This document shows positions 1 through 56,879 of a stretch of 59,469 bases of DNA, in pieces (positions within the stretch are counted from its first letter, which is position 1; every line of letters begins with the position of its first letter). Where the stretch lies: positions 1-59,469 of the IMG/VR virus record IMGVR_UViG_3300030207_002618, one strand, 5' to 3'. Source of the DNA: a virus (taxonomy: Duplodnaviria; Caudoviricetes). The translations under genes were made by a program, and so were the position numbers. The notes under the pieces are model-generated. The model searched no databases. It was not told where the DNA came from and saw nothing but the letters and a program-made list of their open reading frames with translations.

Positions 1-172
1 CGCAAAATACTGGGTCAAACAGGGGACGATGGACGGTGACGTTGTTGTATCAGTACTAAACGTATCATCAAAGAAGTCCGACATAATCAAACTTCTGAAC
101 AGTATAGATGGCAACAAATCATCCCATAAAGCAACGACTATTATGTCGTATAAATCAGAGATGGGGGGGTAG
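1..172 (+). CDS. Hypothetical protein, 5'-truncated (homolog of 50873-51136)
   Basis: Nucleotide match to the 3' part of 50873-51136; stop TAG at 170-172. Confidence 0.75.
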   Translation, partial: AKYWVKQGTMDGDVVVSVLNVSSKKSDIIKLLNSIDGNKSSHKATTIMSYKSEMGG

Positions 173-174
173 TG

Positions 175-453
175 ATGTCAGAGGAAGGATACTTTGAGTT
201 GCTTGTAGAACGCAACGATTTGAAACGAAACAATGCTCGTTTGATTGAAGCGGTTGAGTGTTTGCTTAGTGCAATCAAGATTGGACATTTATGCTTTAAG
301 GAGGATGCCCATACTGGTGATTGGTTGCTTGCAAAGTCAAAGGCTGAGTCTGTTGTTGCTCATTCAAAACCACAAGAGGTCGATGAAGATGGAATACCAT
401 TAGGTAGACCATTGCCATATCCAGAGTGTTGGCCTCCAGGCGGAGGTCAGTGA
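175..453 (+). CDS. Hypothetical protein (allele A-specific insertion)
   Basis: ORF with G-rich SD; TGATG coupling to next gene; absent at the equivalent junction in allele B. Confidence 0.65.
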   Translation: MSEEGYFELLVERNDLKRNNARLIEAVECLLSAIKIGHLCFKEDAHTGDWLLAKSKAESVVAHSKPQEVDEDGIPLGRPLPYPECWPPGGGQ

Positions 454-815
454 TGTCGTTTTCTCATAAGTTTCCAAGCACAGTAATGATTGCTGGGTAT
501 TTGGAAAACGTAAAAGCAATGCAACCATCAAAGCATTCAGGAAAGAGGTGTGTTGGTACTCTGTACAATCCAGCAGTTTGGAAAAACAAATCCAAGAATG
601 AGCCGGCAACAGCGCAGCAGTTTGACCTTCGTGTTCCGCTTATTGGATTCGGAAAGATTGCAGAACTAATGGTTCAGTACTCAATGCAGGGAGACCTCGT
701 TGCAGTTGTGGGCAGACTTGTGCAGCTACGTCAAGGCAAAGACCAGTTTGTAACTGGGTTATACATAGAACTCCTTAAAACTCTCGATGATGAGGAAGAG
801 TACGATGAGCATTAA
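453..815 (+). CDS. SSB-like OB-fold protein
   Basis: VMIAGYL...IGFGKIAE...GDLVAVVGRL resembles the SSB fold; acidic tail; homolog at 51136; start moved to ATG 453 (TGATG overlap). Confidence 0.6.
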   Translation: MSFSHKFPSTVMIAGYLENVKAMQPSKHSGKRCVGTLYNPAVWKNKSKNEPATAQQFDLRVPLIGFGKIAELMVQYSMQGDLVAVVGRLVQLRQGKDQFVTGLYIELLKTLDDEEEYDEH

Positions 816-1779
816 ATACAAAACAGTTAGTGACTTGGATGGAAATGAGTTTGATTTTCCAGAACTTTCAGAACAAATATCAAGCAGGCTTGCCAATCCG
901 GGTAGGCTTTACAGTGACGTTCATTGTGCAAAGAGTCTTGGAGAATCAATCCTTAGACAGTTGAGCGAAGAAAGGCACGCGACAGGTGGTCTTCGTTTAT
1001 CTCAAAGTGGAGCATGCATTAAGCAGCTTGCCTATCAGTACCATCACTACAAAACTGATGGAATGCAGATTGGTGCTGCATCTAAGATTGCTTTTACAAT
1101 CGGAGATATAACGGAGGCAATCATTGTCTCAGCTTTAGCTGAGTGTTTTGATTCACCGAAAAGCAAGTTGATGGGTGCGCTTACCTTTGCAGGTAGCGAC
1201 CAGGAAACAGTGCATATGGATGTAACTCTTGGCGAGGCCACATCCCAAACAGCCAAAATCCCTGGTCATCCAGACGGGACCATTGGCTTCATGGATAGCG
1301 AAATGAATGCTCGTTCAGCAATCCTTGAGGTCAAGTCAATGTCTGACTATGGGTACAGAAAGTTTGTAAAGGAGGGCCTGGGTCGAAGCGATTCATACTA
1401 TTCGCAAGTGCAATCTTATATGCATTGCAAGGGTTTGAAGTGGACCTACCTCGTTGCATACAACAAATCTGCTGGCGCAAGGGATGCAGAAGTCAGTGAC
1501 AATGGAGACTGGTTCCCTGTACCTGCACTCAGTGGTCAGTGGATTCCATATGATGAAGAGCATGCTCTTTACATTCAAGACAAGTTTAGACAGGTGATTC
1601 AAAGCAAGTCAGCCGAAGACTTTGCAAGACCTTACTCGTCTAACAAAAAGGGTCAGTTGGCATTTCCATGTGACTACTGCTCCTATTTCAAAACATGCTT
1701 CCCTCTTTGCAGTGAAGAGGTGGTCGAGTCCAAATGGTTAACAAAAAGCACCAAGATCAAGGTGATTGCAGGAGAGTGA
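805..1779 (+). CDS. Cas4-like PD-(D/E)XK exonuclease
   Basis: HPDG...LEVKS...YYSQVQSYM motifs; N-terminal Cys plus C-terminal CDYC-x5-C (Fe-S cluster pattern). Confidence 0.85.
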   Translation: MSIKYKTVSDLDGNEFDFPELSEQISSRLANPGRLYSDVHCAKSLGESILRQLSEERHATGGLRLSQSGACIKQLAYQYHHYKTDGMQIGAASKIAFTIGDITEAIIVSALAECFDSPKSKLMGALTFAGSDQETVHMDVTLGEATSQTAKIPGHPDGTIGFMDSEMNARSAILEVKSMSDYGYRKFVKEGLGRSDSYYSQVQSYMHCKGLKWTYLVAYNKSAGARDAEVSDNGDWFPVPALSGQWIPYDEEHALYIQDKFRQVIQSKSAEDFARPYSSNKKGQLAFPCDYCSYFKTCFPLCSEEVVESKWLTKSTKIKVIAGE

Positions 1780-1783
1780 TAAA

Positions 1784-2221
1784 ATGATCAATAAAGTAAT
1801 GTTAGTTGGTAAAGTCAAGAGTGAGCCTACGCAGCGTGGTGCTGCCGTTCAGTTCAGGATTGGCACTTGGAGAATCATCGCAGATGGCAGGAAGTTTGAC
1901 TCAACGCATAGTGTCGAGGCTTTTGGTCGGAACGGTGAGATTGCTTCTACACTAAAGGTAGGTGAACTTGTTGCAGTTGAAGGGTCTATTAAACATTCTT
2001 CGTATGAAAAGAATGGACAGAAGGTTTGGTTCACGAGTGTCAGTGCATCATCGGTCGGTCGAGCCGGAGAGCCTGCACAGGAAAGCTCTTCGCAAAGCAA
2101 TGGAGGCCAGGAGGTTGGTGGTGAATCACCCGCAAGCTATCCTCCGAATAAAGCTGAAGCCGGAAATGGTGGAAATGGTGAGGCTCCGTATGCAGGATAC
2201 GATAAAAGCTATGGCTTCTAA
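1784..2221 (+). CDS. ssb: Single-stranded DNA-binding protein
   Basis: MINKVMLVG, EAFG, GELVAVEGSI..SSYEKNG motifs; G/P-rich linker ending in aromatic residue. Confidence 0.9.
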   Translation: MINKVMLVGKVKSEPTQRGAAVQFRIGTWRIIADGRKFDSTHSVEAFGRNGEIASTLKVGELVAVEGSIKHSSYEKNGQKVWFTSVSASSVGRAGEPAQESSSQSNGGQEVGGESPASYPPNKAEAGNGGNGEAPYAGYDKSYGF

Positions 2222-2447
2222 TCAAAACAAAGTTTGTCCAAGTGATGATACTGTAGGTCCAATCCTTGTAATCCCTCACACTCCGTCCGCTATGGGGCGT
2301 AGTGTTGAGAGGATTGTAGATGATGGCGTTACTGTTGTTTCAGTCAATACATTTGGCAAAATGATGGGAGTTCTTTTTAGCGACGGAGATGAATCCTTGT
2401 ACTGGTACCGAGCCCCTGAGCGCGGTGCAGACTTTGGATTGAACTAA
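2211..2447 (+). CDS. Hypothetical protein
   Basis: Conserved with 52822-53037 (VIPHTP...LFSDGD..LYWYR); start re-assigned to ATG 2211. Confidence 0.75.
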   Translation: MASNQNKVCPSDDTVGPILVIPHTPSAMGRSVERIVDDGVTVVSVNTFGKMMGVLFSDGDESLYWYRAPERGADFGLN

Positions 2448-2980
2448 TGAATGCGACCAGTCATACAGAAAAGCAAAGTATTTACATTGGGATTGACCCA
2501 GGTAAAGATGGAGCCCTTGTTGCAATCGACTCCGATGGGAAGATTAAGGCAAGCTTTATGACTGGTCGTGATTTTACTATGACCATTGGTAAAGGTTCTA
2601 AGAGAGAGTACATGGTCTCTCGTATGGCGTATGCTTTAAAGTGCTTGGGAGGGCACAGTAATATAAAGTTAGCAGTCATAGAAAAGCAGTCTGCAAGACC
2701 AGGACAAGGTGTCACGTCAACATTCAGCACTGGGTACGGATACGGACTCTGGGTTGGGGTTCTTTCTGCAAATGGGATTCCATTTGTGGAGGTCCGTCCT
2801 AAGACTTGGGTTAGCTCAATACTCAAGGACGTTCCCGGTGAAGGCAAAAACCGCTCAGTTTACGCTGTGATGAATCGTTTGCCTGAACTGGACCTTACCC
2901 CTGGTAAGAAGCGTAAGCCCCATGACGGGCTTGCTGATGCAGCCTGCTTGGCACTTTACTCAATGCACCTTGAGGTGTAG
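2447..2980 (+). CDS. ruvC: RuvC-like Holliday junction resolvase
   Basis: IGIDPG, AVIEKQ, STFSTGYGYG, HDGLADAACLA catalytic motifs. Confidence 0.9.
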   Translation: MNATSHTEKQSIYIGIDPGKDGALVAIDSDGKIKASFMTGRDFTMTIGKGSKREYMVSRMAYALKCLGGHSNIKLAVIEKQSARPGQGVTSTFSTGYGYGLWVGVLSANGIPFVEVRPKTWVSSILKDVPGEGKNRSVYAVMNRLPELDLTPGKKRKPHDGLADAACLALYSMHLEV

Positions 2981-3043
2981 TTCAATTGGCAGAACGCCCG
3001 ACTGTTACTCGGGAAGTTGGTGGTTCGAGTCCATCCGCCTCAG
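2971..3043 (+). tRNA. tRNA-Asn (GTT)
   Basis: Acceptor TGAGGTG/CGCCTCA, D arm GTTC/GAAC, anticodon arm CCCGA-CTGTTAC-TCGGG, T loop TTCGAGT; CCA not encoded. Confidence 0.9.
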
Positions 3044-3048
3044 AATCT

Positions 3049-3113
3049 CCTTACCCTTCGCAATCACGTTGATGTTGCATGACATCATCTCCCACCGATT
3101 GCGGGGGGTAAGG
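3049..3113 (+). ncRNA. Putative structured ncRNA downstream of tRNA-Asn
   Basis: Long outer stem plus inner hairpin; core identical in allele B with compensatory changes in outer stem. Confidence 0.55.
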
Positions 3114-3128
3114 CTTCCACTTTAAGAT

Positions 3129-4019
3129 ATGGCAAGCAAACGAATATACAAAAGAAAGACTGACGTTTATCCCAACAAAGCATTCTATGAAGGCAGGGTA
3201 GATCTAAATAAACTTGGAATACCGATTGGTTGGTATCACAAGAAGAAAGGCAAAAAGACTAAGTGGACAATCTTGAATGCAGGATTGATACAGATTGGAA
3301 TCACAAACCATGTTCTCGGTCTTGCACCAGACAGGAAAGAAATCTTTCTGGGTAGGAACGGAAAGCTTTGGAGATACGAAAGCAAACTTCTGCCAAGCCC
3401 TGTCCCAAATACATTGGGATTCGATAAAGAGGACTTGAATGCATGGGCTGATGCTTGTGCAAGGATGGTTATCGACCGCCTTACACCGAGGAACGAAGCC
3501 ACATTAACAGAGCAATCCCACTACAGATACAGGAAGATAGTCCAAGCCCTTGTCAATCAGCGGATACTTGATTCAGCAGCCATTGGTTATGAGTGTACTG
3601 CGTTATCATTTGCTCGTGGCATATCTGTAGAATGGACAGCGCATGACTTGCTATATCCAAGGCACGCCACAATCAGGCACGCTACCCTGGTCGCACTTGT
3701 TCTTGCATTAGAGGCAGACAAAGCGGCACAGCTAATAGAGCTTGCAGCACTCATTGAAATGAGAATCCCTTTTATATCAAGAGAAGCTGCGCTATCGATA
3801 TATCAACAGGCAGTGTCATTGCTTGCAAGGCTTTGCCCGCAATGGTGGAACCAGGGCTACACATGTAGATGGGAACTCGTTGGTGACATTGACAAAGTAT
3901 TTAGAGCGCAATATATTCGTATTACAGAAAGTGCTTGGGACAACGGCATTCAATTTGAAACAGCAGGGGGGCTTGTCCTTCGGAATCTTATTGATTCTGA
4001 CCCCTTTGCAGAAGAGTAG
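3129..4019 (+). CDS. Hypothetical protein (allele A-specific)
   Basis: 296-aa ORF filling the interval; no recognised motif. Confidence 0.7.
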   Translation: MASKRIYKRKTDVYPNKAFYEGRVDLNKLGIPIGWYHKKKGKKTKWTILNAGLIQIGITNHVLGLAPDRKEIFLGRNGKLWRYESKLLPSPVPNTLGFDKEDLNAWADACARMVIDRLTPRNEATLTEQSHYRYRKIVQALVNQRILDSAAIGYECTALSFARGISVEWTAHDLLYPRHATIRHATLVALVLALEADKAAQLIELAALIEMRIPFISREAALSIYQQAVSLLARLCPQWWNQGYTCRWELVGDIDKVFRAQYIRITESAWDNGIQFETAGGLVLRNLIDSDPFAEE

Positions 4020-4026
4020 GAGGTAC

Positions 4027-4923
4027 ATGATGGGAAGAACCCGACATGTTTGGACAGATAAGATGATTGAATTGCTCGGAACAGACTCCGATGCAAACAT
4101 TGCTAAGAAGATTGGGTATAGTTCCACCACCGTTTACAAGAAAAGAAAATCTCTTGGCATTGCTTCTGCAAAAAAGAAGGAGATGGAAACGAGAAAAGAG
4201 GTCGGCGGCTACAATCGTTTAATGCCAGTAAAGAAAGCAAGGTCAGACCAGAAGTTGCTAAACAGATACCCAGGAATCTCTGAACACCTTGCATCAAAAA
4301 ACAATACTCTTGTTGGTGAGATCTATGGAATCAGCAGAGAGAGAGCGAGGCAGATAAGAGAGCAGTTAAATATACCAAGGCCAAAGCACAATATACTTTC
4401 TAAGCTTAGTGATGTAGACCAAGAGTTTATAAAGCAAAACATGGGCAAGATGCCCGACGCGCAGCTTGCAAGGATGCTTTCTGTAGCACAACAAACGATT
4501 ACAAAGTACAGACAATCTAATGGTATTGCTTGCTATCGTGACAAGATGCTACTTAAAAAGAAAGAGCTTATAAAGACTCAGGTTCATCGGCTTGGTATTG
4601 ATAGCGACCGACAAATAGCATCAGATCTTGATGGTGTTGAACAGCAAGATGTTTATAGGTTCCGCAAAAATCTTGGGATTAAAGCAAACAAAAAACATTC
4701 TCGTCGATGGCAGTCACTCGACCGTGAGACACGAGACTTTCTAATCACAAAGTTTTACAAAGACGGGTATACAGACGAACAGATTGCGGAACAGATTCAC
4801 TATGCCGAAACTACTGTTGCACAAATACGTAGTCAGCTTGGTCTCGTAAAGTGGAATCGAACGAACCAAGCGTCACGCGAGGATGATGCGCCCGAGTCGT
4901 ACACGGATGAGGCGGCTGTGTAG
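4027..4923 (+). CDS. Multi-HTH DNA-binding protein (five tandem HTH units)
   Basis: Repeated LG...D..IA....S...V...R..LGI units; one with sigma70 region-4-like SRERARQI; SD AGGAGG before ATG 4027; homolog 54358-55206. Confidence 0.75.
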   Translation: MMGRTRHVWTDKMIELLGTDSDANIAKKIGYSSTTVYKKRKSLGIASAKKKEMETRKEVGGYNRLMPVKKARSDQKLLNRYPGISEHLASKNNTLVGEIYGISRERARQIREQLNIPRPKHNILSKLSDVDQEFIKQNMGKMPDAQLARMLSVAQQTITKYRQSNGIACYRDKMLLKKKELIKTQVHRLGIDSDRQIASDLDGVEQQDVYRFRKNLGIKANKKHSRRWQSLDRETRDFLITKFYKDGYTDEQIAEQIHYAETTVAQIRSQLGLVKWNRTNQASREDDAPESYTDEAAV

Positions 4924-4980
4924 GCGCACACACGCGCACCTGGAGGATTTTTCCCTACTACGTAGGGCCAAGATCGCAGC

Positions 4981-5009
4981 TTGACAGCCCTGGGGGGGGC
5001 CGTTAACCT
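4981..5009 (+). promoter_or_regulatory. Sigma70-like promoter
   Basis: TTGACA-N17-TAACCT in intergenic region upstream of glycosylase gene. Confidence 0.65.
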
Positions 5010-5075
5010 GGGGTGAACTGGGGCCAGTCTGGACCAGTCAAACCAAGCCGTCAAAGTTGGCGGAAAGGATTAGCA

Positions 5076-5567
5076 ATGAATATATTCGTCGTAGATAAAC
5101 ACCCACAAACAGCAGCGCGAATGCTTTGTGATGAGCATGTAGTAAAGATGGCTCTTGAGTCAGCACAGATGTTGTGTACTGCAATCAACGAAAGCGGTGG
5201 ACAAGCTCCATACAAGTCAACACACAAGAACCATCCTTGCAATGTCTGGGCAAGAGAAACGCTTGGCAACTGGCTTTGGTTGTATGACCACGGGATGGCA
5301 TTGTGCGATGAGTACTTGCTGCGATTCCAGAAGGGCAATGCAGAGAAGAAAGACCACAAGTGCCGGTCGATTATGTTTGAGTGCCTTAAAATATTAGACG
5401 GAAAAAGTTTTATTACTGGTCTTGGAAAGACTCCGCATCCTCTTTGCATGCCCGACGAGTACAAGACAGACAACGTAGTTCAGTCATACCAAGACTTTTA
5501 CAACATGGAAAAGTGTGACTTTGCAACGTGGAAACACTCAGACCCACCGCAATGGTGGGCTTGGTAA
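5076..5567 (+). CDS. Pyrimidine-dimer DNA glycosylase family protein (DenV-related)
   Basis: MNIF...AARMLCDEHVVKMALESAQML...THKNHPC..W signature. Confidence 0.8.
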   Translation: MNIFVVDKHPQTAARMLCDEHVVKMALESAQMLCTAINESGGQAPYKSTHKNHPCNVWARETLGNWLWLYDHGMALCDEYLLRFQKGNAEKKDHKCRSIMFECLKILDGKSFITGLGKTPHPLCMPDEYKTDNVVQSYQDFYNMEKCDFATWKHSDPPQWWAW

Positions 5568-5592
5568 ACCGGACATATTGTGTCCACATTCA

Positions 5593-5676
5593 GCTTGGAT
5601 GGTGGAATAGGTATACACAGGAGACTTAAAATCTCCCGGCATTATTGCCATGCGGGTTCGATTCCCGCTCCAAGCA
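5593..5676 (+). tRNA. tRNA-Leu (TAA)
   Basis: Acceptor GCTTGGA/TCCAAGC, anticodon arm GGAGA-CTTAAAA-TCTCC, long variable arm, T arm GCGGG-TTCGATT-CCCGC. Confidence 0.92.
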
Positions 5677-5708
5677 CCTTCTCTGATACAGAGTAAACAA
5701 CACCTTCA

Positions 5709-6038
5709 ATGGAGGAAATCATGTCCTACAATCCAGAGAGTGCAATCGCACATCTCAATAACACTATCTACCTTTTGCATCAGCTTCATGATGACGCGAA
5801 AGTATTGCATGTATCTGCATCAAATGATGGTGCATCCGTTCAGCTTACCGAAGAAGACTTCGATGCATTTTGTGAAAGCTCAGGCATCGATGACTGCATC
5901 GTAAAGGTAGGTTCAAACGATACAATGCACTGTTCAGTAATCTTGCATCTTGGTGACTCACGAGTTGAGTTGATTACCGTCAAAGAGTTTGACCTTGATT
6001 TTCTAATCAAAGCAAGGCAGCAAGAGGAGGTGTTTTAA
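5709..6038 (+). CDS. Hypothetical protein (allele A-specific)
   Basis: ORF with TAATG coupling to next gene; start may be ATG 5721 after GGAGG. Confidence 0.65.
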   Translation: MEEIMSYNPESAIAHLNNTIYLLHQLHDDAKVLHVSASNDGASVQLTEEDFDAFCESSGIDDCIVKVGSNDTMHCSVILHLGDSRVELITVKEFDLDFLIKARQQEEVF

Positions 6039-6241
6039 TGCCATCATCAATCATAGAAGATCTTGCAATGGCAAGAGACGTATTGTCTGACATACGTTCA
6101 ACAATAAAAATCAAAAAGCATAGGTGCTCGGCCTGCAATGCAGAAAGCTGGGACAACTTTGAAAAGTACAAAATGAAACTCAACATTGATGGGGCATTGA
6201 GCCGCATTGACAAAGCTATGGAGATTGCTCGTGACATCTAA
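6038..6241 (+). CDS. Small hypothetical protein with CxxC
   Basis: Conserved with 56197-56403 (EDL..AR..LSDI...CxxC...LDGAL.R..KAMEI). Confidence 0.75.
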   Translation: MPSSIIEDLAMARDVLSDIRSTIKIKKHRCSACNAESWDNFEKYKMKLNIDGALSRIDKAMEIARDI

Positions 6242-6587
6242 ACTTATTCCACCTCGTCCCGTTGGTGTCGTTTCTGTAGAGCAGGAAGAGTACACATTGT
6301 CGATTGGTAGCTATTTGAATGGCAATCTTGCAATCATGATGCATACAAAACAAGGAGAACCTTATGCAGTAGTGTCCAAAAACATTCCATCTATACCCGT
6401 AGATGGTGATCAGTTCTTTGTGAACTGGTACAACTTGAGTCCTGTTATCCTTGACTCACTATCTAAATGCGGATTCTTTGAAGATACAGGCAGCAGAATC
6501 CGTCCCGATGGCTCTCATGTGGAGCTTCCGCTTTGGCAAATGAGTAGCCAGGTAAAAGTACTTCACATGTCAAGCAATGAGGAGTGA
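6231..6587 (+). CDS. DUF4313-like hypothetical protein
   Basis: Y.NGNLAI...GEPYAVVS.N...GFFEDTG pattern; conserved with 56390-56749. Confidence 0.6.
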   Translation: MTSKLIPPRPVGVVSVEQEEYTLSIGSYLNGNLAIMMHTKQGEPYAVVSKNIPSIPVDGDQFFVNWYNLSPVILDSLSKCGFFEDTGSRIRPDGSHVELPLWQMSSQVKVLHMSSNEE

Positions 6588-6602
6588 GAGCCCAGCCCAA
6601 AA

Positions 6603-6650
6603 GGGGGTGCTACACTCCCTGAACGAAGTGAAGGGAGGTGTAGCATCCCC
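6603..6650 (+). other. Conserved long hairpin with TGAACGAAGTGAA cap (copy 1)
   Basis: About 17-bp stem with a 3' purine bulge; homologous elements at 55210-55256 and 56766-56813. Confidence 0.8.
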
Positions 6651-6699
6651 ACCCTTCAAAAAAAATCACCCCGTCGGTAGTACCGGCAAAGGAAATCAG

Positions 6700-8493
6700 A
6701 TGTTTATTTTTCAATACACAAACCCAGACGGCAATAAGTCATTGTTCAAAAGTCATGACCGAGGTCAGGCCAGCACTGATGCACAGCGTGCATTCTTTGC
6801 TGATTACAAAGCAGGAAAGTGGGTCGGCATTGACAGCGAAAACTCTATTGTGGAGCTTGATGATGTTGTTGAACCTGCAAAGGTTGAGCCTGCTGCCCCT
6901 GTATTTGGATTGATGGACCCGACTACCTCTGTTGCAGACAGCGGGTATGAGCAGTTCATGCAGGATGTATGCACTGACGATGAGCCCTGTGAAGAGGATG
7001 TCGAAGACATGGCGTCAGAGTATGAGCAAACCAATGATGCAATGGATGCATTGTCTGAAGACATGAACGCCATCGCCACTGCTAATGCAACCACGTCACG
7101 TCTTGAGATTGCAATGTCTGAAGACCCTCAAGTTCGTGAGGATACTCCAGTATTCCAAGGCGGCTGGGGCTCTGGTGCTAACGGCGTAAGCAAGCATGGT
7201 GATAAGCGTACTGTTGATTACAATACTGTCAGTCAGGTTGCAGTCAGTCGCCAGGAGAATCACGATGCTTGGCTTGCAGAGATTGGATTGTCTCGACCAC
7301 CGAAGAATATCTCTATTACAAAGGCAGGATACAAACGCGGTACTGCTGCTGTTGACCTTGGTTACGACAATCTTGATGCTGCTCGTACTGTGTGGGACGG
7401 GAAGCCAGACCCATACACTGCTGTATCACAGTTCATGAACATTATTGGATCGGAGGATCGGCAGAGTGTTGACCTTCCATTGTCTGGTTTGCAAATGAGT
7501 GACGATGGAATGCTGTTGACCAGCCAGGGTAGCTTCCGATTGGAGGAGCATGGCCTTAAGCAGTTGCTTACAGCATCACGCTTTGGTGTTGGTGAGGACA
7601 TGGCATCCGGTGATTCATTGTTTCCTCGTGGCTTTCATACAATGAAGGCACTTGACCCAGACATTAGAGCACATGTTTTCAATGAGCACATGCGCCGCCA
7701 TTGCAGTCATGACAAGGTAATGAAGTTCCGCACTCGATTGAACGACGGTGCTCGTACCATCTTCGGTGTCGTTGGTACTGGGTACAAAGAGTATGATGCA
7801 GATCAAGTTGCAAACATGATTCAGCTTGCTGTTGATGACATGCCCTACAAAGCAGAGATTCAATACAACTCGAAGACTACGAACTTCACAATGGATGTGA
7901 CAATGCATGCACCGTCGGACTTGACCGACTTCAGTGCGGGTGATTTGTATGAGGTTGGGTTCCGCTTCAAAGCTAATGACCGTGGGGGCGGCTCCATCAA
8001 TGGCAGTGCTATTGCGTTCTGGAATGAATGCTTGAATATGATCATCCTTCACAGTGAGAAGGCTGAGATTATGAGAGCAATTCACACGGGCAATATGGAA
8101 CAGAAGATGCAAGCCATCCGTGAGGGTATGGCTAATGCGCGTCCTGCAATGGAAAGGTTCGCCCAGGACTGGGGTATCCTCGGACAGACTGCATCGGTGT
8201 CTGCAATCTCAAGCAAAGACATGGATGACTATGGATTCGATGGTGCCAATGGCTCTCAGATTCTAATCAAGAAGCTCGTTGCCGAAGGCAAGGTTGCATC
8301 TAACATTGGTCGCGATGCTGCTGTGCAAATGATGTTTGATTCATATGCAGACCAGGGTGGTGGTGACAGTGTTCAGGATGTCATCAATGCAATCACACGT
8401 ATGGCTCATCAGCACCTCGTTGATGATTGTGCTCGTGATGTATTGGAGCGTGAGGCTGGTGCCCTTGTTCCTGTACTTGTAGGAAGAGCATAG
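6700..8493 (+). CDS. DUF932-like domain protein with acidic N-terminal extension
   Basis: C-terminal GFRFKAND.GGGSI...FWNECLN.II resembles DUF932 RxxCxNG; SD AAAGGA before ATG 6700; homolog 56880-58688. Confidence 0.6.
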   Translation: MFIFQYTNPDGNKSLFKSHDRGQASTDAQRAFFADYKAGKWVGIDSENSIVELDDVVEPAKVEPAAPVFGLMDPTTSVADSGYEQFMQDVCTDDEPCEEDVEDMASEYEQTNDAMDALSEDMNAIATANATTSRLEIAMSEDPQVREDTPVFQGGWGSGANGVSKHGDKRTVDYNTVSQVAVSRQENHDAWLAEIGLSRPPKNISITKAGYKRGTAAVDLGYDNLDAARTVWDGKPDPYTAVSQFMNIIGSEDRQSVDLPLSGLQMSDDGMLLTSQGSFRLEEHGLKQLLTASRFGVGEDMASGDSLFPRGFHTMKALDPDIRAHVFNEHMRRHCSHDKVMKFRTRLNDGARTIFGVVGTGYKEYDADQVANMIQLAVDDMPYKAEIQYNSKTTNFTMDVTMHAPSDLTDFSAGDLYEVGFRFKANDRGGGSINGSAIAFWNECLNMIILHSEKAEIMRAIHTGNMEQKMQAIREGMANARPAMERFAQDWGILGQTASVSAISSKDMDDYGFDGANGSQILIKKLVAEGKVASNIGRDAAVQMMFDSYADQGGGDSVQDVINAITRMAHQHLVDDCARDVLEREAGALVPVLVGRA

Positions 8494-8637
8494 AACTGGG
8501 GCTGTGGATAACTTTACAGTCTTTATGATTCTGTTTTGTATTGGTTTATTTATATCAATGCAGGACTTGATTTAAAAACAATACACGGGGTGGCTTTGTT
8601 TCGGCCACCCCGTGTCCAAATAGCAAGGAGAGAAACG

Positions 8638-9000
8638 ATGCCTACACAAAATGATAGTTCATTTATGCAGCACAGAAAAAAATACGAAGGTATTCTTCGC
8701 AATGATCCCGAGTATGATTCCATAATAAAAACAATACAGTCATGGGAATACTTTAAGCATGCATTGAATGACACATTGCACGGTGTTTATCTGCACGGTG
8801 TAACGCTTGAGAAATGGGACAGACTTGGCGATGCATGCTGGGGCCCATATTCATTCCACAATAAAGATGGCGAGGTGAGACGATGCAGTAAGCGCGGACC
8901 AGCCACATTAGCAGAGCGTGTATGCACTCTGAAAGAGGCCGTTCGCTTAATGCAGCATGGGGATATTCCGGTTCCGATTGACCAACCTTTGTCCAAATAG
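8638..9000 (+). CDS. Hypothetical protein (WD..L..CWG...RVC.LKE family)
   Basis: SD AAGGAG; paralog of 9011-9472 and homolog of 59082-59405. Confidence 0.7.
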   Translation: MPTQNDSSFMQHRKKYEGILRNDPEYDSIIKTIQSWEYFKHALNDTLHGVYLHGVTLEKWDRLGDACWGPYSFHNKDGEVRRCSKRGPATLAERVCTLKEAVRLMQHGDIPVPIDQPLSK

Positions 9001-9010
9001 TGGAGGACTA

Positions 9011-9472
9011 ATGCTAATTAATCTTAATAATGTTGACGAAGTTTATGAGTCTAATCGAAAAGTATATGAACAAATGTTTCACGATGACGATATGTCAGAC
9101 TTCATTGTTAATGAATCATTTAATTGGCATCATTACATTGATGTTGTAAATGCATATCTGTTTTTTGATGACAAACATATGAATACTATTGAGCTTGACG
9201 ATTGGCAGGCCCTTGCAGATAAATGCTGGGGTACGTTCCCCTCCACATTAGGGCCTGACACGGAGAGCGACCGCGTAGCTGTACTCAAAGAATGCATGAG
9301 GATTCATGCCGAAAACTTTATGATTCGAGTAATGCAAACATGCGAGATTGTATGCAAAAACGATGCCGCCTATTCGGTTGTGGCATTCCTTCTTAGTCAA
9401 TCTTCGTATGAGCTATTGATAGAGATGAGTAAACTGATTGGACTCAAGCCAATACCCGACAATGGTAAATGA
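9011..9472 (+). CDS. Hypothetical protein (paralog of upstream gene)
   Basis: SD GGAGGA; shares W..L.D.CWG...GP.T...RV..LKE. Confidence 0.7.
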   Translation: MLINLNNVDEVYESNRKVYEQMFHDDDMSDFIVNESFNWHHYIDVVNAYLFFDDKHMNTIELDDWQALADKCWGTFPSTLGPDTESDRVAVLKECMRIHAENFMIRVMQTCEIVCKNDAAYSVVAFLLSQSSYELLIEMSKLIGLKPIPDNGK

Positions 9473-9491
9473 CGAGCGCATAAATACAGAC

Positions 9492-9533
9492 AAAAGAAAA
9501 GCCCCAGGGGAGCAATCCCGTGGGGCTTTTTTT
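9492..9533. terminator. Bidirectional intrinsic terminator
   Basis: AAAAGCCCCA...TGGGGCTTTTTTT flanked by A- and T-tracts at the convergence of + and - gene blocks. Confidence 0.85.
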
Positions 9534-9555
9534 GTATCAGTAATGTACTGTTTGT

Positions 9556-33228: not shown

Positions 33229-36200
33229 ATGGCTGAAAAAACACCGATTGCACCGGCTACAGAGGTATCACCTCAAACAGAAGGTTTTTCTTTTGAGCCT
33301 CCATCTGTTGATCCTATTGAAGAAGAGGTAGAAGAAGCCGAACAAAACGATGATGGCTATGCTTGGCTTTGGGATGATGATGAGCCCGAAGATCAAAACG
33401 ATGAGCGGTATGAATATGTACCAAGCAAGCAAGACTTCTCTCGCGCCTGGAGCGATGCAAAAAAAGCCACTGACCCAATTTCTGCAAAGGTTGCATTATC
33501 TCAATCGTTTAGCCCAAGAATGCAGGATGACATCCAGAGTAGAGTTGAAGAAGAAAGCAACATTGTTTCTGTTCAAAGAGAAGAACAACTTCCAAACCTA
33601 CTTAAAGAAGGCTTTGTTGGTGCCGTAGAAGCCGGTTCAGCCGCTGCTGATGTTGTTTCTGAATACACCCCAGAGCCAGTAAAAGAAGGGGCGTCATACG
33701 TCACAGACAAGGTATTGTCTTTTGGAGGAAACTTTGTCCTCCCGACTGTAGAAATGGTCGATGTTCCACGATCTGAAAGCTGGACAAAAACATACAAAAA
33801 TAACGCAAGAGTCCTGCCAGACACGGGAACCTTTTCAGGGGATGCATTAGCAGATGTTTTTTCTAGTTTTGCTTCTGGAATAGACACAGTTTCAAGACTT
33901 CTTAATGAACAAACAGAGTTTGAAAACGAGCAGTCTGAAGAGCAATATAAAGAAGACATAGACATATTAGCTAAATCAATCTACTCAGCATTTGCTGATG
34001 GTAAGCTGTACAAAGCAGCAATAGAGCGAGAGGGCTACTTCGTTGAGCGGCCTGAGCTTTTCGGTCTACTTGAGGGCTCTAACGCAACTGGTGAAGACCT
34101 AATCAATATTGCATTTCCGATTGATGTAATGCAAAGATTGAAGGCAAACTCACCAAAATCAAGACGCGATATTGAACTTGGCGGCCCACCGGGCGGATAC
34201 TCTATCACCGGAACAGCGGCAAACTTTACCGACTCTACGTATTGGATTGATCAACTTTCTAGTCCAGTATCTAGAATGGGTTGGGGTCTTGCAATGGAAG
34301 TTATTGCAGATCCTCTCTGGTTTGTTGGTGCTGCAAAAGGTGCAATTCAAGTCACATACAAAGGTACTGCTTACAATCTCAACCAGGGTGGTGCTCGCGC
34401 TGCACAAATCTTAGACAACTACTCTGGTGCGTCTGGTCGAAGCGGGATGCATGCACAAACGGTTGTAAGTGCTGTCATTGACTCTGCTGACGATGCTGCA
34501 AAGTCCAGAACCGTAATGAGGGAGGCAGCAGACATAGCCGAACAAGAAGCCAGAGCTAATATGGTAAAGGCTGCAAGGCTCTCTAGGCTTGCTGATATGG
34601 CTGATGATCCGTCAACTCTTCAGAGGTCAATGGATGGGCTGAGAAAAGAGCTTGAGAAAGACATAAAAGCTGTACAAAACATAGCCAAAAAATACTCAGG
34701 CGCAGAGTCTACTCCTGCCGTAAAAGCAAAGTACAAAAAAGCACTGCAAAAAGTAGAGGAAATCAAAGCTGATATTGCATCTCTAAATAAATTTAGCGGT
34801 AGACCAGACAAGGCAAAAGAGTCGCTACTTAATATGGCTGAAAAGCGAATAGCTAACGCTGCCGCTCACCGTGGTGCAGCCTCTGAGCTTAGATCTTTTG
34901 TTGAGCTAGCCGAGTCATCAACGCACTTAGGAAAAGCTGGAATCACAGAAGCAAGCTTATTGCCTGTTTTTGGAACTTGGCACATTCCATTTGGAACAAA
35001 GACTGGAACGATTGCAACTTCTAGTCAGCTACAATCCATTGGTTCTAAAATAAACAAGGCACTTGAGGGCCAAGACCAACTTGTAACAGCAATCAGAAAA
35101 GTATCTGAATCTACAGAAAAGTTGAGTATGAACTCAATCAACAAAAAGATTGCTGACAACCTATCTCAGGGCGTTGATACCCTTTCTGGTTTATCGGCGG
35201 GTGAAAAGCTTGCTTGGACAATGGGTCAAGGTTTTTCTAAAGCAAAAACTATATCCTACCGTGGTGCGGATCTTCTTGCTCGAATGGTCGGAACAAGGCA
35301 CTGGCAGGCGCTAACAGCATCTAAAGCTATTCAGGCTGAAATGGCGTACTACGGTTCAAGAGAAGGCATCATGATGGGTATGTCTGGCTCTAAAGAACAC
35401 ATTGTTAGGATGAAAAGATTGCGTCCCGACCTATGGGAAAACTATCAAAACAGTGTCACAAAGTATTTAAGGTCTTTAGACGGTCTTTCTGCTGACGCAA
35501 CTCGACGAATCGACATCCTGTATACAATGGCTGGAGGTTCAGATGGAAAGGGTGGTGCTCTTGCTGAGTGGAAAGCCGCTGTAAGAGAGCGGGATATTCC
35601 AAAGATTCAAGCAAAGCTTTCGTCCATCGATGAAGAGATTAATCGTTTATCAAAACTGCCCACATCTCCAGACGTAGCACAACAATTAAATGCTTTGAAT
35701 AGAGAGCGTGGTCTTACCTTGTCAGACCTGAGCGCAAAAAGAAGAATCCTCGATGATGACTTTGGCGTAAATGAGCTAATGGATGAGGTTGCAGACCTTA
35801 TTGAGACCGGTGCTGGCAAGATCGATGAAACGCCATGGCTAAAAGCTCTTACAAAAGAATGGTCTTCTATTGAGGCTTCGCTTGCAAAAGAACTAAAGAG
35901 GGACATCGAACAGGTTCGACAAGCTTTAGTTGCAATGGTTCGATGGGGTAAGGGCGAAAAGCAAGCAGCAGAAGATCTCGCTCGACGAATCGCTATTATC
36001 AATCAAGTTCTTGAATCAACCAAGCCATTTACTAACCAACAAAAAATGGCAATGGATCAGATTGTTGATGCATTAAATGTTCGTCTTACCAGCAAAAACG
36101 AATTGTTTAATGTTGTTTCAGAGAAGAAGCTGGCAGAGGTAATCTACCGAACCGTTAGTGTTTCTCGCGGAAGACCCTTTGGTGATGAAGTAATCCAAGC

Positions 36201-50876: not shown

Positions 50877-51136
50877 TGAGAATCTACCAACTATACAAAT
50901 GGGACAACCACATGGGGCCATCAGTTACATTCTTTAGCAACAAAGCTGACGCCACTAAATCCGCAAAATACTGGGTCAAACAGGGGACGATGGACGGTGA
51001 CGTTGTTGTATCAGTACTAAACGTATCTTCAAAGAAGTCCGACATAATCAATCTTCTGAACAGCATAGATGGCAACCGATCATCCAATAAAGCAACGACT
51101 ATTATGTCGTATGAATCAAAGATGGGGGAGTACTGA
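50873..51136 (+). CDS. Hypothetical protein
   Basis: Coupled to Sak gene; conserved with 1-172. Confidence 0.7.
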   Translation: MMRIYQLYKWDNHMGPSVTFFSNKADATKSAKYWVKQGTMDGDVVVSVLNVSSKKSDIINLLNSIDGNRSSNKATTIMSYESKMGEY

Positions 51137-52832: not shown

Positions 52833-53037
52833 TTCTGATACAGTTGGTGAGATCTGTGTAATCCCACATACACCATTGGCTATGAGTCAAAGCGTTCCAC
52901 GAATCATTGAAGAGGGGGTCATGGTTGTTTCCGTTGACCCGTTTGGTTCACTAATGGGCGCTCTATTTAGCGATGGTGACAAGGGTTTATACTGGTATCG
53001 CTCACCAGATAGTGGGTCAGACTTCGGAATAAACTAA
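52822..53037 (+). CDS. Hypothetical protein
   Basis: Homolog of 2211-2447. Confidence 0.75.
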   Translation: MDSNSDTVGEICVIPHTPLAMSQSVPRIIEEGVMVVSVDPFGSLMGALFSDGDKGLYWYRSPDSGSDFGIN

Positions 53038-53038
53038 A

Positions 53039-53632: not shown

Positions 53633-53637
53633 AATCC

Positions 53638-53702: not shown

Positions 53703-53720
53703 CATTTACATGGAGGAAGA

Positions 53721-54172: not shown

Positions 54173-54347
54173 ATACAGGTGCTCAGAGTGCAACTATGAG
54201 GTCACCGTTTTCCAAAGTATGGATGCACCGGCACCACATTGTAACTGTGGGTCAAAGGAAGAAATGAAACGGCTCATCTCTAAGACCAGCTTCTCCCTAA
54301 AGGGAAGGGGTTGGGCGAAGGATGGGTACTCATCTAAAGGCAGATAA
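54159..54347 (+). CDS. FmdB-like zinc-ribbon protein
   Basis: MPVYEYRCSEC...TSFSLKGRGWAKDGY. Confidence 0.8.
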   Translation: MPVYEYRCSECNYEVTVFQSMDAPAPHCNCGSKEEMKRLISKTSFSLKGRGWAKDGYSSKGR

Positions 54348-54357
54348 GGATTACATT

Positions 54358-55206
54358 ATGGGACGAAAAAAATTCAACATACCTCAAGAATATATTGACT
54401 TGCTTGGCAAGGTTAGAGATTCAGAAATCTCAAGGTTGTCTGGCATTAGCTACCAAAACATTAGGAACAGAAGGATTGCGCTTGGCATCCCCAAGTTTTC
54501 TGATGCAAAAAAAATCAGCCACACAAAGGGGCAAGTAATCCTTAAGAAGGGACAACAAGTAAACGTTGAAGCACTAGATAAAAAGTATCCAGGCATTGTT
54601 AATAAGCTTGGAACTCAAACTGACTCATCGATTGCTAAGCAATACAACATATCCAGGGAAAGAGTCAGACAATTTAGATCTATGCTTTCCTTATGCAAGG
54701 TTGAGCGTAACCCTATAGAAAAGCTATCAACAGTAGATAGAAGGTACTTGGACGACAACCTTGGTTTAATGAGTGATAAGTCTCTGGCCCAACAGCTTGG
54801 GCTTAAGCCTAATGTTGTCAGCCAATACAGAAAAAACAAAAATGTAAACTCCCTTGGTGCGAACAGAAGGCAGCTTGTCCTTACTCAAAAGCATAGGCTT
54901 GGTAAGGATAGCGACAGTGTTATTGCAAGACACCTAAATCTTTACACCAACCTTGTTCGTGATGTTCGTATTGAGCTTGGTATAGAACCAAACCCAAAGA
55001 ACAATCCGAGATGGGGTTCGGTAAAAGCAATAAGGGAAACAAGAAACAAAAGAATTTCTGAAATGTATTACGCAGGATGTTCTGACCAGGAGATAGCAGA
55101 AGAGCTTTGCCTCGGCGTTACATACATTGGGGGTCTTAGGAGAAGGCTTGGATTGTTTCACCGCAACTGTCGTGGCGCGTACAAGAAGCGTGCATCGAAC
55201 GAGTAG
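54358..55206 (+). CDS. Multi-HTH DNA-binding protein (five tandem HTH units)
   Basis: Homolog of 4027-4923; SRERVRQ unit. Confidence 0.75.
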   Translation: MGRKKFNIPQEYIDLLGKVRDSEISRLSGISYQNIRNRRIALGIPKFSDAKKISHTKGQVILKKGQQVNVEALDKKYPGIVNKLGTQTDSSIAKQYNISRERVRQFRSMLSLCKVERNPIEKLSTVDRRYLDDNLGLMSDKSLAQQLGLKPNVVSQYRKNKNVNSLGANRRQLVLTQKHRLGKDSDSVIARHLNLYTNLVRDVRIELGIEPNPKNNPRWGSVKAIRETRNKRISEMYYAGCSDQEIAEELCLGVTYIGGLRRRLGLFHRNCRGAYKKRASNE

Positions 55207-55209: not shown

Positions 55210-55256
55210 TGGGCTCTCTACCCCCTGAACGTAGTGAAGGGGGATAGAGAGACCCA
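55210..55256 (+). other. Conserved long hairpin with TGAACGTAGTGAA cap (copy 2)
   Basis: Different stem sequence, same pairing and same 3' purine bulge. Confidence 0.8.
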
Positions 55257-55303
55257 CTTCGTCAAAACCAAACCACCGGCATCGACCGGAAAAGGACACC
55301 GAG

Positions 55304-55783
55304 ATGAACATCTTTGTTGTACACAATCACCCAAGAAAAGCAGCGCGAATGCTTTGCGATAAGCATGTCGTAAAGATGGCTCTTGAGTCAGCACAAATGT
55401 TGTGTACTGCAATCAACGAAAGCGGCGGTCAAGCCCCATACAAGTCCACACATAAGAACCATCCTTGCAATGTCTGGGCAAGGGAAACGCTTGGCAACTT
55501 CTTATGGCTTTATGACCACGGACTAATGCTTTGTGATGAGTACTACTCACGCTTTAAAAAGAAACACAAATGCAAAGACGTAATACTTAAATGCTTAGAG
55601 TTGCTACGTCCTGAATACGGCATTTTAATTACTGGTTACGAGCGAACCCCCCATCCTCTTTGCATGCCTGATGAATACAAAGGTGATGATGTAGTTGCTT
55701 CATACCGAGACTTTTACAACATGGAAAAGTGTGGCTTTGCAGAGTGGAAACACACCGACCCACCCGACTGGTGGGCTTGGTAA
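55304..55783 (+). CDS. Pyrimidine-dimer DNA glycosylase family protein
   Basis: Homolog of 5076-5567. Confidence 0.8.
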   Translation: MNIFVVHNHPRKAARMLCDKHVVKMALESAQMLCTAINESGGQAPYKSTHKNHPCNVWARETLGNFLWLYDHGLMLCDEYYSRFKKKHKCKDVILKCLELLRPEYGILITGYERTPHPLCMPDEYKGDDVVASYRDFYNMEKCGFAEWKHTDPPDWWAW

Positions 55784-56765: not shown

Positions 56766-56813
56766 TGGGGTGTTCCACTCCCTGAACGTAGTGAAGGGAG
56801 GTGGAACATCCCA
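56766..56813 (+). other. Conserved long hairpin with TGAACGTAGTGAA cap (copy 3)
   Basis: Two compensatory base-pair changes relative to 6603-6650. Confidence 0.8.
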
Positions 56814-56879
56814 CCCTCATCAACCCCAGCCGACATAGCTCGGCACAACGGACCAACTGTCCATCAACCGGAGATAAAA

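What the first reader, a model, noticed from the sequence alone, without database searches (positions are those of the whole stretch)
6603..6650. Thrice-repeated covarying hairpin with invariant TGAACG(A/T)AGTGAA cap: candidate new cis-acting element
Seen: copies at 6603-6650, 55210-55256 and 56766-56813, each intergenic just after a stop codon. All form ~16-17 bp stems with a single purine bulge on the 3' side after the sixth pair. Copies 1 and 3 differ by two fully compensatory pairs (A-T to C-G, C-G to T-A); copy 2 has a largely different stem with the same geometry. The cap can fold as tandem GA/GA mismatches, then A-T, C-G and a GNA triloop. Known: C(GNA)G triloops and sheared tandem G.A pairs are exceptionally stable in single-stranded DNA; N4 virion RNAP promoters are triloop DNA hairpins; T7 early mRNA is cut at intergenic RNase III hairpins. 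Inference: a protein-recognised ssDNA or RNA hairpin (promoter, priming/recombination signal, processing site, or REP-like mobile repeat).
Basis: partly seen in the sequence, partly recalled or inferred. Interest (0 to 1): 0.75.

Follow-up and report, generated by a model that had tools for sequence, protein, structure and literature searches.

The report
Capped hairpin shared by many phages
The three hairpins are real copies of a widespread, apparently undescribed phage DNA/RNA hairpin with a nearly invariant 13-base cap, which in other phages sits inside replication-initiator genes beside origin-like repeats, so it most likely marks a site where DNA replication is primed.

Summary
Observation confirmed. 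The three copies are exact, gene-sense, intergenic, and the most stable local folds in the window. A covariance model built only from other phages finds these three and nothing else.

The window is a whole marine phage record that runs past one genome unit. Copies 1 and 3 are therefore the same locus in two diverged haplotypes, so there are two loci, not three.

The cap TGAACG(N)AGTGAA sits on unrelated stems in more than 100 IMG/VR contigs. Its inner A-T pair covaries with G-C, while single changes never carry a stem. Rfam and sequence searches of papers find nothing.

Two contexts exist:
- **Class I:** a short hairpin antisense inside the linker of phage replication-initiator genes, next to iteron-like repeats, laid out like the lambda origin.
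- **Class II (this window):** long hairpins on the gene-sense strand, 2-5 per genome, between early genes.

Best reading (about 0.4) is a single-stranded-DNA priming or primosome-assembly signal. The main rival (about 0.3) is an intercistronic RNA stabiliser or processing site. An N4-type hairpin promoter is disfavoured, because the GNA loop lies on the wrong strand.

The parts
6603..6650 (+). Capped hairpin, locus B, haplotype 1 (cap 6620-6632, TGAACGAAGTGAA)
   Evidence: Sequence. RNA fold -33.7 kcal/mol. Covariance model R1 scores 31.7 bits.
55210..55256 (+). Capped hairpin, locus A, haplotype 2 only (cap 55226-55238, TGAACGTAGTGAA)
   Evidence: Sequence. RNA fold -30.0. R1 scores 31.7 bits. 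The same locus is present in relative L360 at 2841-2869.
56766..56813 (+). Capped hairpin, locus B, haplotype 2 (cap 56783-56795)
   Evidence: Sequence. RNA fold -31.8. R1 scores 36.3 bits. Nearly identical to the L360 copy.
6673..6687 (+). Small second hairpin (GTCGGT-AGT-ACCGGC) between the capped hairpin and the start of the downstream gene
   Evidence: Centroid fold. A counterpart is present downstream of every copy, and also in the relatives that lack the cap.
55276..55289 (+). Small second hairpin (CCGG-CATCGA-CCGG) downstream of copy 2
   Evidence: Fold. Also listed on the - strand.
56829..56844 (+). Small second hairpin (GCCGA-CATAGC-TCGGC) downstream of copy 3
   Evidence: Fold.
4980..5008 (+). 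Promoter-like CTTGACA-N17-TTAACC. It occupies the place of hairpin A in haplotype 1.
   Evidence: The same kind of replacement (CTTGAC-N17-TTAAGC after a CTCCC-TTCG-GGGAG hairpin) is seen at locus B in L362 and L363.
6700..8493 (+). 597-aa gene downstream of locus B (602-aa counterpart at 56880-58688). phrog_1362, with a DUF932-like lead.
   Evidence: PHROG hit. No Pfam hit. The atlas lead is a cluster in which 24% of members carry DUF932; this is a lead only.
54322..55206 (+). 294-aa multi-HTH protein that ends 3 nt before hairpin A
   Evidence: PHROG and Pfam HTH hits, plus a weak 'homing endonuclease' PHROG hit.
55304..55783 (+). Pyr_excise-like (phrog_624) gene downstream of hairpin A

Best explanation
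The hairpin is a strand-specific signal that works as folded single-stranded DNA. It is a single-strand-initiation or primosome-assembly type site.

Proposed mechanism: when the cap-bearing strand becomes single-stranded, the rod-shaped hairpin forms. Its apex consists of a U/T-A pair, a tandem G.A, A-T, C-G and a GNA triloop. A conserved host replication factor binds this apex to load helicase or primase and start complementary-strand synthesis. PriA-type primosome assembly is my specific guess.

What is shown:
- The structure and its covariation.
- The asymmetry between the two strands.
- The occurrence of the same cap next to iteron-like repeats inside phage initiator genes, arranged as in the lambda origin.

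What is inferred:
- That the window's intergenic, gene-sense copies do the same job. They lie in the module with the DnaB-like helicase, Erf, exonuclease, SSB and resolvase genes.
- That the strand is exposed by strand displacement or transcription.
- The identity of the binding factor.
For: 1. The cap strand is the folding strand. Non-Watson-Crick positions inside the stems are G.A 35 against C.T 2, and G.T 10 against A.C 3. By class, intergenic copies show G.A 18 against C.T 2 and G.T 5 against A.C 0; class I shows G.T 4 against A.C 0.
2. In 64 of 129 hairpin-bearing instances, that strand is antisense to a gene and lies in its linker. An mRNA of that sequence is not expected there.
3. Those genes are replication initiators. 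Pfam DUF1376 matches 11 of 17. PHROG families annotated replication initiation, DnaD-like helicase loader, replisome organizer or primosomal protein match 14 of 16.
4. Repeated 7-mers lie on one side only. The mean score is 16.4 on the 3' side of the cap strand against 1.2 on the 5' side, and 23 of 36 loci against 2 of 36 pass the threshold. Examples include nine tandem 12-mers. The order iterons, A-rich tract, hairpin equals that of lambda ori as read from the record.
5. The inner pair is strictly Watson-Crick. Stems accompany A-T in 58 of 114 matches, G-C in 11 of 124, G.T in 0 of 104 and A.C in 0 of 106. Intolerance of G.T is more DNA-like than RNA-like.
6. There is a precedent with the same placement. 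The phiX174 hairpin just after gene F, on the sense strand, is at once the T_F terminator, ori(-) and a PriA site (passages of bioRxiv 10.64898/2026.07.25.740675). It folds with a 2x2 GA/GA loop between a C-G and an A-T pair, which is the same local motif as the base of the cap.
7. The cap is identical across phages of 31-69% GC. This argues for a very conserved partner.
Against: - The window copies have no iteron-like repeats nearby, and no initiator gene was recognised in this phage.
- Every intergenic (class II) lineage I inspected by eye is gene-sense, directly after a stop and 10-70 nt before a start. That is also what an RNA element would show.
- At the same spot, relatives L362 and L363 carry a C(TTCG)G-capped hairpin, a loop typical of stable RNA hairpins. 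The window also has another such hairpin at 58700-58715.
- The model finds nothing in lambda ori, phage G4 or the N4 early region.
- 0 of 6 named phages with DUF1376 initiators have the hairpin, so it is not required by that kind of origin.
- With DNA parameters the fold program leaves the cap as an open 11-nt loop, and the strand difference shrinks to about 1-2 kcal/mol.
- No binding or priming was tested. PriA as the partner is a guess from a resemblance.
Confidence: 0.4

Rival explanations
1. RNA-level intercistronic element. The hairpin is transcribed within the polycistronic early mRNA. It acts either as a 3'-end protective barrier or as a double-strand-specific (RNase III-like) processing site, in the way the hairpins between phage T7 early genes do. 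The cap would be a very stable or protein-bound apex.
For: - All class II copies seen are gene-sense and intergenic, a few nt after a stop and 10-70 nt before the next start, with 2-5 per early gene cluster.
- Stem plus structured cap gives about 22-27 stacked pairs.
- They are the strongest folds in the window and lack a T-run, while a canonical terminator with a T-run exists at 9489-9544.
- Relatives replace the hairpin with a C(UUCG)G hairpin plus a promoter-like site.
- In group 4 the 3' foot of the stem overlaps the ribosome-binding site.
Against: - This cannot explain the same cap on the antisense strand inside initiator genes in 64 of 129 instances, unless antisense RNAs exist there.
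- RNase III needs no specific loop, so near-invariance of 13 nt across hosts of 31-69% GC is unexplained.
- G.U at the inner pair is never found on a stem (0 of 104).
- G.A outnumbers G.U among the stem irregularities.
- No RNA data are available.
Confidence: 0.3
2. Recombination linker or selfish palindromic cassette. The conserved cap and its pyrimidine/purine flanks are short shared homology at module boundaries. This spreads by recombination between phages and mediates gene or domain shuffling, as proposed for the PeSL motifs of T4-type phages. There would be little function of its own.
For: - It lies at mosaic junctions. Alignable similarity between the two haplotypes breaks at the hairpins.
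- Locus A is present in one haplotype only, and locus B in 3 of 5 relatives.
- In class I it sits exactly between N- and C-terminal domains of different families.
- It is sporadic among DUF1376 initiators, 0 of 6.
- The lambda record marks recombination junctions at 39157/8 and 39165/6, beside its ori palindrome.
Against: - Stems differ completely between lineages yet stay paired. Nine of 19 pairs show compensatory changes within the window lineage alone.
- The cap pair covaries strictly.
- The two hairpin alleles are kept identical, apart from the loop's N, between genomes whose flanks are only roughly 60-70% alike by my reading.
- This is selection on a folded structure, not merely on shared homology.
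- No associated transposase or nuclease family was found. Clustering of neighbours gave only within-lineage families.
Confidence: 0.15
3. DNA-hairpin promoter for a phage-encoded (virion) RNA polymerase, as in coliphage N4.
For: - The triloop is C(GNA)G, as in N4 promoters. In the N4 record the P1 and P2 hairpins read GCGAAGC and C-GGA-G on the template strand.
- The copies are clustered upstream of early genes.
- The window, G001 and G004 each encode a giant virion-type protein of 2708, 2618 and 1671 aa.
- At two loci the hairpin is exchanged for a promoter-like site.
Against: - The GNA loop and the favourable mismatches are on the sense strand, not the template strand.
- Stems are 16-23 bp, so a start about 11 nt from the loop would fall inside the stem.
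- The giant proteins are not homologous to one another, and only the close relative G005 shares the window's protein.
- They have no DxDxD motif, and those of the window and G001 have no PDB sequence match.
- Model R1 finds nothing in the N4 early region.
Confidence: 0.07

Closest known systems
phiX174 F-G intergenic hairpin (T_F terminator / ori(-) / PriA primosome assembly site)
   Same: It is an intergenic hairpin on the gene-sense strand right after a stop codon. It functions as folded ssDNA recognised in a structure-specific way by a host replication protein (passages read). It contains a 2x2 GA/GA internal loop with an A-T pair on the apical side (fold).
   Different: It has a different apex (a long A/T stem with a 4-nt loop) and no 13-nt cap. 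Model R1 was not run on phiX174, and its neighbour G4 gives no hit. phiX174 is an ssDNA phage in which exposure of that strand is obligatory. Here the genomes are dsDNA, and exposure of the strand is inferred.
Lambda-type origin inside the initiator gene (iterons, A/T-rich tract, palindrome in gene O)
   Same: Class I relatives have the same order and the same strand asymmetry inside the initiator's linker. Passages of PMC12663957 describe the iterons in O and the unwinding of the adjacent AT-rich region.
   Different: The lambda palindrome has another sequence and is not matched by the model. The window's own copies are intergenic, have long stems and lack iterons.
N4 virion-RNA-polymerase hairpin promoters
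   Same: Both have C(GNA)G triloop DNA hairpins upstream of early genes, several per early region. The properties of these promoters are recalled from the literature, not read here.
   Different: In N4 the loop is on the template strand and the stems are 4-7 bp. Here the loop is on the sense strand, the stems are 16-23 bp, and the cap adds a tandem G.A extension. No shared polymerase gene was found.
T7 early-region RNase III sites; REP/BIME elements
   Same: These are intercistronic, gene-sense, multi-copy long hairpins without a U-tract (recalled knowledge).
   Different: Those elements have no invariant apex shared across unrelated phages and hosts. REPs are abundant in host chromosomes, whereas this hairpin was almost absent from GTDB genomes (2 of 148 matches had stems).
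PeSL promoter/stem-loop cassettes of T4-type phages (PMC2839356, PMC4122927; search listing and abstract starts only)
   Same: They are repeated intergenic motifs that bracket small early genes at mosaic boundaries.
   Different: PeSLs are described as composite promoter-terminator motifs confined to T4-like phages. Here no promoter is attached, the cap is shared across many lineages, and the element also occurs inside genes.

Membership tests
Any Rfam 15 family | Score at or above a family's gathering threshold | tested here: not met
   The whole window gave only 4 tRNAs. Positions 6560-6720 in E-value mode gave only chance-level hits of 15 bits or less. Twelve loci with copies gave only tRNAs.
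Intrinsic (rho-independent) terminator | GC-rich hairpin followed directly by a T/U run | tested here: not met
   The tails are CACCCTTCAAAA, CTTCGTCAAAA and CCCTCATCAACC. None of the three is listed by the terminator scan. A canonical terminator does exist at 9489-9544.
N4-type hairpin promoter | Short (about 5-7 bp) stem with a 3-nt purine-centred loop on the template strand upstream of the transcribed gene (recalled definition) | tested here: not met
   The GNA loop is on the sense strand and the stems are 16-17 bp. N4's own hairpins were read. R1 gives no hit in N4.
N4-type hairpin promoter | A virion RNA polymerase encoded by the phage | tested here: inconclusive
   The 2708-aa protein has no Pfam, PHROG or PDB sequence match and no DxDxD motif. 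A fold comparison was not done.
REP-like host repeat | Abundant, stem-bearing copies in bacterial chromosomes | tested here: not met
   The GTDB contig scan gave 148 cap matches, of which 2 had a stem score of 12 or more.
Lambda-type origin (iterons + A/T-rich + hairpin within initiator gene) | Tandem iteron-like repeats adjacent to the hairpin, inside an initiator gene | tested here: not met
   Not met for the window: there are no repeat families near the copies and no enrichment in intergenic copies. Met for class I relatives, at 23 of 36 loci, and their genes are initiators.
Primosome assembly / single-strand initiation signal | Strand-specific ssDNA hairpin | tested here: met
   Mismatch asymmetry favours the cap strand. 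The cap strand is fixed relative to the iterons in class I.
Primosome assembly / single-strand initiation signal | Binding by PriA or primase and orientation-dependent priming of complementary-strand synthesis | not testable with these tools
   Needs biochemistry or an M13-type rescue assay.
RNase III processing site | About two turns of double-stranded RNA in an intercistronic transcript | tested here: met
   A 16-17 bp stem plus 5 stacked cap pairs, gene-sense and intergenic.
RNase III processing site | Cleavage by RNase III in vivo or in vitro | not testable with these tools
   No RNA run holds the sequence.

The most novel reading that the evidence does not exclude
A single 13-nt capped hairpin is a pan-phage 'replication start' mark, read as folded ssDNA by a universally conserved host replication-restart or priming protein such as PriA. 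It is embedded in the initiator gene at iteron origins of temperate phages, and scattered on the displaced (sense) strand of the early region in lytic phages. If so, phage origins and priming sites could be called from sequence alone across hosts of 31-69% GC.
Probability: 0.25. Interest if true: 0.85.

Novelty: new variant of a known kind. Interest (0 to 1): 0.75.

Why it matters
Phage origins and priming signals are known for only a handful of model phages and cannot yet be predicted in metagenomic genomes.

A compact motif with clean covariation, found in more than 100 unrelated viral contigs and absent from Rfam, would be useful in three ways:
- It is a ready marker for replication modules.
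- It is a handle for finding the conserved factor that reads it.
- It is an unusual case of a nucleic-acid structure kept inside a protein-coding linker, where it is always read as SSLRSE.

If it proves instead to be an RNA element, it would be one of the most widely shared cis-RNA motifs of phage early operons.

Tried and rejected
- **Rfam:** three searches gave nothing.
- **Full-text searches for the cap sequences:** only chance primer or marker matches, in 7 and 4 papers, none on phages. Word searches on replisome organizer/origin/repeats and on ssi/primosome found no description of this motif.
- **RNA evidence:** no RNA holder was listed for window 52000-59000, only DNA-type runs from marine or seawater metagenomes and two coded organisms.
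- **Sigma-70 promoter and terminator scans:** counts were at or below shuffle expectation for promoters and uninformative. CTTGAC is not enriched.
- **GC skew:** follows gene strand only.
- **Relatives of the phage among named isolates:** the terminase gave only hits below 60% identity, the listed ones at 22-25%, and the 597-aa protein gave none.
- **Class II copies in named phages:** BLAST with two hairpin regions gave candidates, but 0 of 5 fetched regions had a model hit.
- **A protein family shared by all hairpin-bearing loci:** only within-lineage clusters were found.
- **Automatic strand calls for intergenic copies:** too noisy because of spurious ORFs, so I relied on inspection.
- **Resemblances considered from memory and dropped:**
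  - 5S rRNA: the similar bases are not a local hairpin there.
  - Lambda boxB.
  - The rrn boxA.
  - attC sites.
  - The CS-6 loop motif of plasmid ssoA origins.
  - The sarcin-ricin loop.
  None of these was tested beyond reading sequences, and none fits all copies.

Full report
**1. The observation**

The 19-nt core CCCTGAACGWAGTGAAGGG occurs three times and never in 100 shuffles.

As RNA they fold at -33.7, -30.0 and -31.8 kcal/mol, and 0 of 200 shuffles fold as well. The predicted anatomy is as described: a long stem with one 3'-side purine bulge, a U-A pair, tandem G.A/A.G, A-U, C-G and a GNA triloop. The opposite strand folds 2-6 kcal/mol worse. With DNA parameters the stems are kept, the cap is left open and the strand difference is about 0.3-1.7 kcal/mol.

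The three copies are the three most stable 56-nt windows on either strand of the window.

Each lies between + strand ORFs, 3-16 nt after a stop and 47-66 nt before the next start. None is followed by a T-run. A canonical terminator with a T-run does exist at 9489-9544.

**2. What the window is**

It is a complete IMG/VR virus record held in marine metagenomes. It encodes:
- terminase, portal and capsid proteins;
- a 2708-aa protein of no known family;
- a DnaB-like helicase;
- Erf, a Cas4-type exonuclease, SSB and a RuvC-like resolvase;
- two tRNA pairs.

Positions 1-9064 are colinear with 50962-59469 in 8 blastn segments of 70.8-94.4% identity. The record therefore runs past one ~51 kb genome unit, and its two ends are diverged versions of the same region.

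Copies 1 and 3 are thus one locus (B, upstream of a 597/602-aa gene) in two haplotypes. Their three compensatory pair changes are genuine covariation between homologues.

Copy 2 (locus A) has no counterpart in the other haplotype. There the spacer holds a CTTGACA-N17-TTAACC promoter-like site.

**3. The family**

In 58 of 114 distinct matches the cap is flanked by a stem, and the stem sequences are unrelated (AT-rich to GC-rich, 6-23 bp).

The inner A-T pair of the cap gives a clean test:

| Inner pair | Matches with a flanking stem |
|---|---|
| A-T | 58 of 114 |
| G-C (double change) | 11 of 124 |
| G.T (single change) | 0 of 104 |
| A.C (single change) | 0 of 106 |

The two single-change sets also serve as the chance control for flanking stems.

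The closing U-A pair is replaced by C-G in some copies. The triloop's middle base is free: among the 129 hairpins it is T 73, A 47, G 6 and C 3.

In GTDB bacterial and archaeal contigs only 2 of 148 cap matches had a stem.

I built a covariance model from 34 hairpins of other phages (8 bp plus the cap). These were selected for pairing, so their own pair counts are not independent evidence. The model finds the three window copies at 31.7-36.3 bits, and the next best hit scores 12.2.

**4. Conservation in relatives**

Five contigs encode relatives of the 597-aa protein at 64-77% identity.
- Three carry the hairpin roughly 50-70 nt upstream of that gene, and one of them also has locus A.
- Two carry instead a CTCCC-TTCG-GGGAG hairpin followed by CTTGAC-N17-TTAAGC.

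The two stem 'alleles' of the window recur unchanged in other genomes, apart from the loop's N. The flanks are much more diverged. Across eight copies of this lineage, 9 of 19 predicted pairs show compensatory changes.

**5. Two contexts**

Of 205 distinct cap matches, 129 have at least 6 Watson-Crick pairs.

*Class I.* Sixty-four lie antisense to an open frame of at least 180 codons. They are always in the frame that reads the reverse complement as (S/P/T)SLRS, about 100-250 codons in, with short stems (median 6 bp). At least one of the 64 (L092) is a long-stem intergenic copy misfiled because of a spurious frame.

The proteins are replication initiators:
- DUF1376 in 11 of 17.
- PHROG families annotated replication initiation, DnaD-like helicase loader, replisome organizer, primosomal protein or O-like in 14 of 16.
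- An annotated 'replisome organizer' in a GenBank record, and hypothetical genes of Komagataeibacter phage phiKX1 and Acetobacter phage phiAX1.

Their N- and C-terminal domains belong to different families, and the hairpin sits in the linker between them.

On the 3' side of the cap strand come short tandem repeats and then iteron-like repeats, for example nine tandem 12-mers. Repeated 7-mers score 16.4 there against 1.2 on the other side, and 23 against 2 of 36 loci pass the threshold.

Read in gene sense, the order is iterons, A-rich tract, hairpin. This is the order in lambda ori inside gene O, which I read from the record. The stems differ between loci but stay paired even though they are coding.

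The hairpin is not universal. None of 6 named phages with DUF1376 initiators has it.

*Class II.* Fifty-two instances are intergenic with long stems (median 17.5 bp), and 13 are ambiguous.
- In every lineage I inspected, the copies are on the gene-sense strand, after a stop and before a start. These lineages are the window's, L092, the L076 group, the L102 group, L079, L446/L444, L394/L423, L384 and L078.
- Whole records hold 2-5 copies within 1.5-5 kb on one strand.
- No iteron-like enrichment accompanies them.
- Neighbouring genes include ArdC in one group. In the window the neighbour is a protein with a DUF932-like lead.

**6. Which strand, and DNA or RNA?**

Irregular positions inside the stems are overwhelmingly those tolerated on the cap strand: G.A 35 against C.T 2, and G.T 10 against A.C 3 (by class). 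The cap strand is therefore the one that folds.

In class I that strand is the template strand of the initiator gene. A sense RNA cannot carry the cap there, so the shared partner must read DNA, or an unknown antisense RNA. This is my main reason to prefer a DNA-level function.

Further support comes from:
- the origin-like setting;
- strict Watson-Crick covariation with no G.T;
- the excess of G.A over G.T;
- the phiX174 precedent.

On the phiX174 precedent, a preprint I read in passages states that the hairpin after gene F is at once the T_F terminator, overlaps ori(-) and is a PriA site. It folds with a GA/GA internal loop between a C-G and an A-T pair, as at the base of this cap. That likeness is a lead, not a test.

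Against this reading, and in favour of RNA:
- class II copies are uniformly gene-sense and intercistronic;
- relatives exchange the hairpin for a C(UUCG)G hairpin;
- the window has another such hairpin at 58700-58715.

**7. The N4 idea**

In the N4 record the early promoter hairpins (TTGC-TTC-GCAA at about 92-102, AGAAGC-TCC-GCTTCT at about 557-575) have their GNA loops on the template strand. Here the GNA loop is on the sense strand and the stems are far longer.

The giant proteins of three class II phages are not homologous to each other. They lack a DxDxD motif, and those of the window and G001 have no PDB sequence match. I rate this reading at 0.07.

**8. Verdict**

- The element is real and strongly structure-constrained.
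- It is widespread in phages and rare as a hairpin in cellular genomes.
- It is not in Rfam, and my searches did not find it in print.

Its function is not shown. I commit to a strand-specific ssDNA replication-priming or primosome-assembly signal at 0.4. The rivals are an intercistronic RNA stabiliser or processing site (0.3), a recombination linker or selfish cassette (0.15) and a hairpin promoter (0.07).

Noticed in passing
window 1-9064 vs 50962-59469: The record overruns one genome unit. Its two ends are colinear but only 70.8-94.4% identical in 8 blastn segments, with gene replacements (for example a 366-aa against a 294-aa HTH protein). This could be two co-assembled strains, or a tandem of two related genomes.
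   Followed up: partly
window 2970-3044, 5593-5678, 53559-53633, 55810-55895: tRNA-Asn(GTT) and tRNA-Leu(TAA) are each present twice because of the overrun. tRNA-Leu lies between the two hairpin loci.
   Followed up: no
window 58700-58715: A GCCCCC-TTCG-GGGGGC hairpin without a T-run lies 12 nt after the stop of the 602-aa gene. It is absent at the matching place in the other haplotype (8494 onward).
   Followed up: partly
window 9489-9544: A strong bidirectional terminator-like hairpin (A-run, stem, T-run; -30.7 kcal/mol) lies at the point where + and - strand genes converge.
   Followed up: no
window 33229-41355: A 2708-aa ORF has no Pfam, PHROG or PDB sequence match. It is shared only with the close relative G005, where the match lies in pieces at both ends of that contig.
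   Followed up: partly
L090 (IMG/VR contig end), five copies at a 70-nt period: A tandem array of a 70-nt unit, each unit carrying the cap with N=G (CTGAACGGAGTGAAG) on a weak stem. Its nature is unknown.
   Followed up: no
L009, L101, L455 (phiKX1), L457 (phiAX1): Class I genes with two capped hairpins in tandem. The first has a C-G closing pair, and the peptide reads ...SSLRSE..PSLRSG...
   Followed up: partly
GTDB loci L171, L239, L142, L233, L218; viral L019, L120, L252: A short hairpin family, gtcattcTGA(A/G)CG.AG(T/C)GAAgaatc, in bacterial MAGs and genomes shares the same cap architecture. I recall similar repeats as common in Bacteroidota and Chloroflexota, but did not check this.
   Followed up: no
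L111 (IMG/VR contig of 9750 bp): The contig is an inverted duplication of itself, with the same hairpins on both strands at mirrored positions. This is probably an assembly artefact.
   Followed up: no
L464 (lambda) 1362-1372: The bare 11-mer GAACGAAGTGA occurs by chance inside lambda gene P, without any stem.
   Followed up: no
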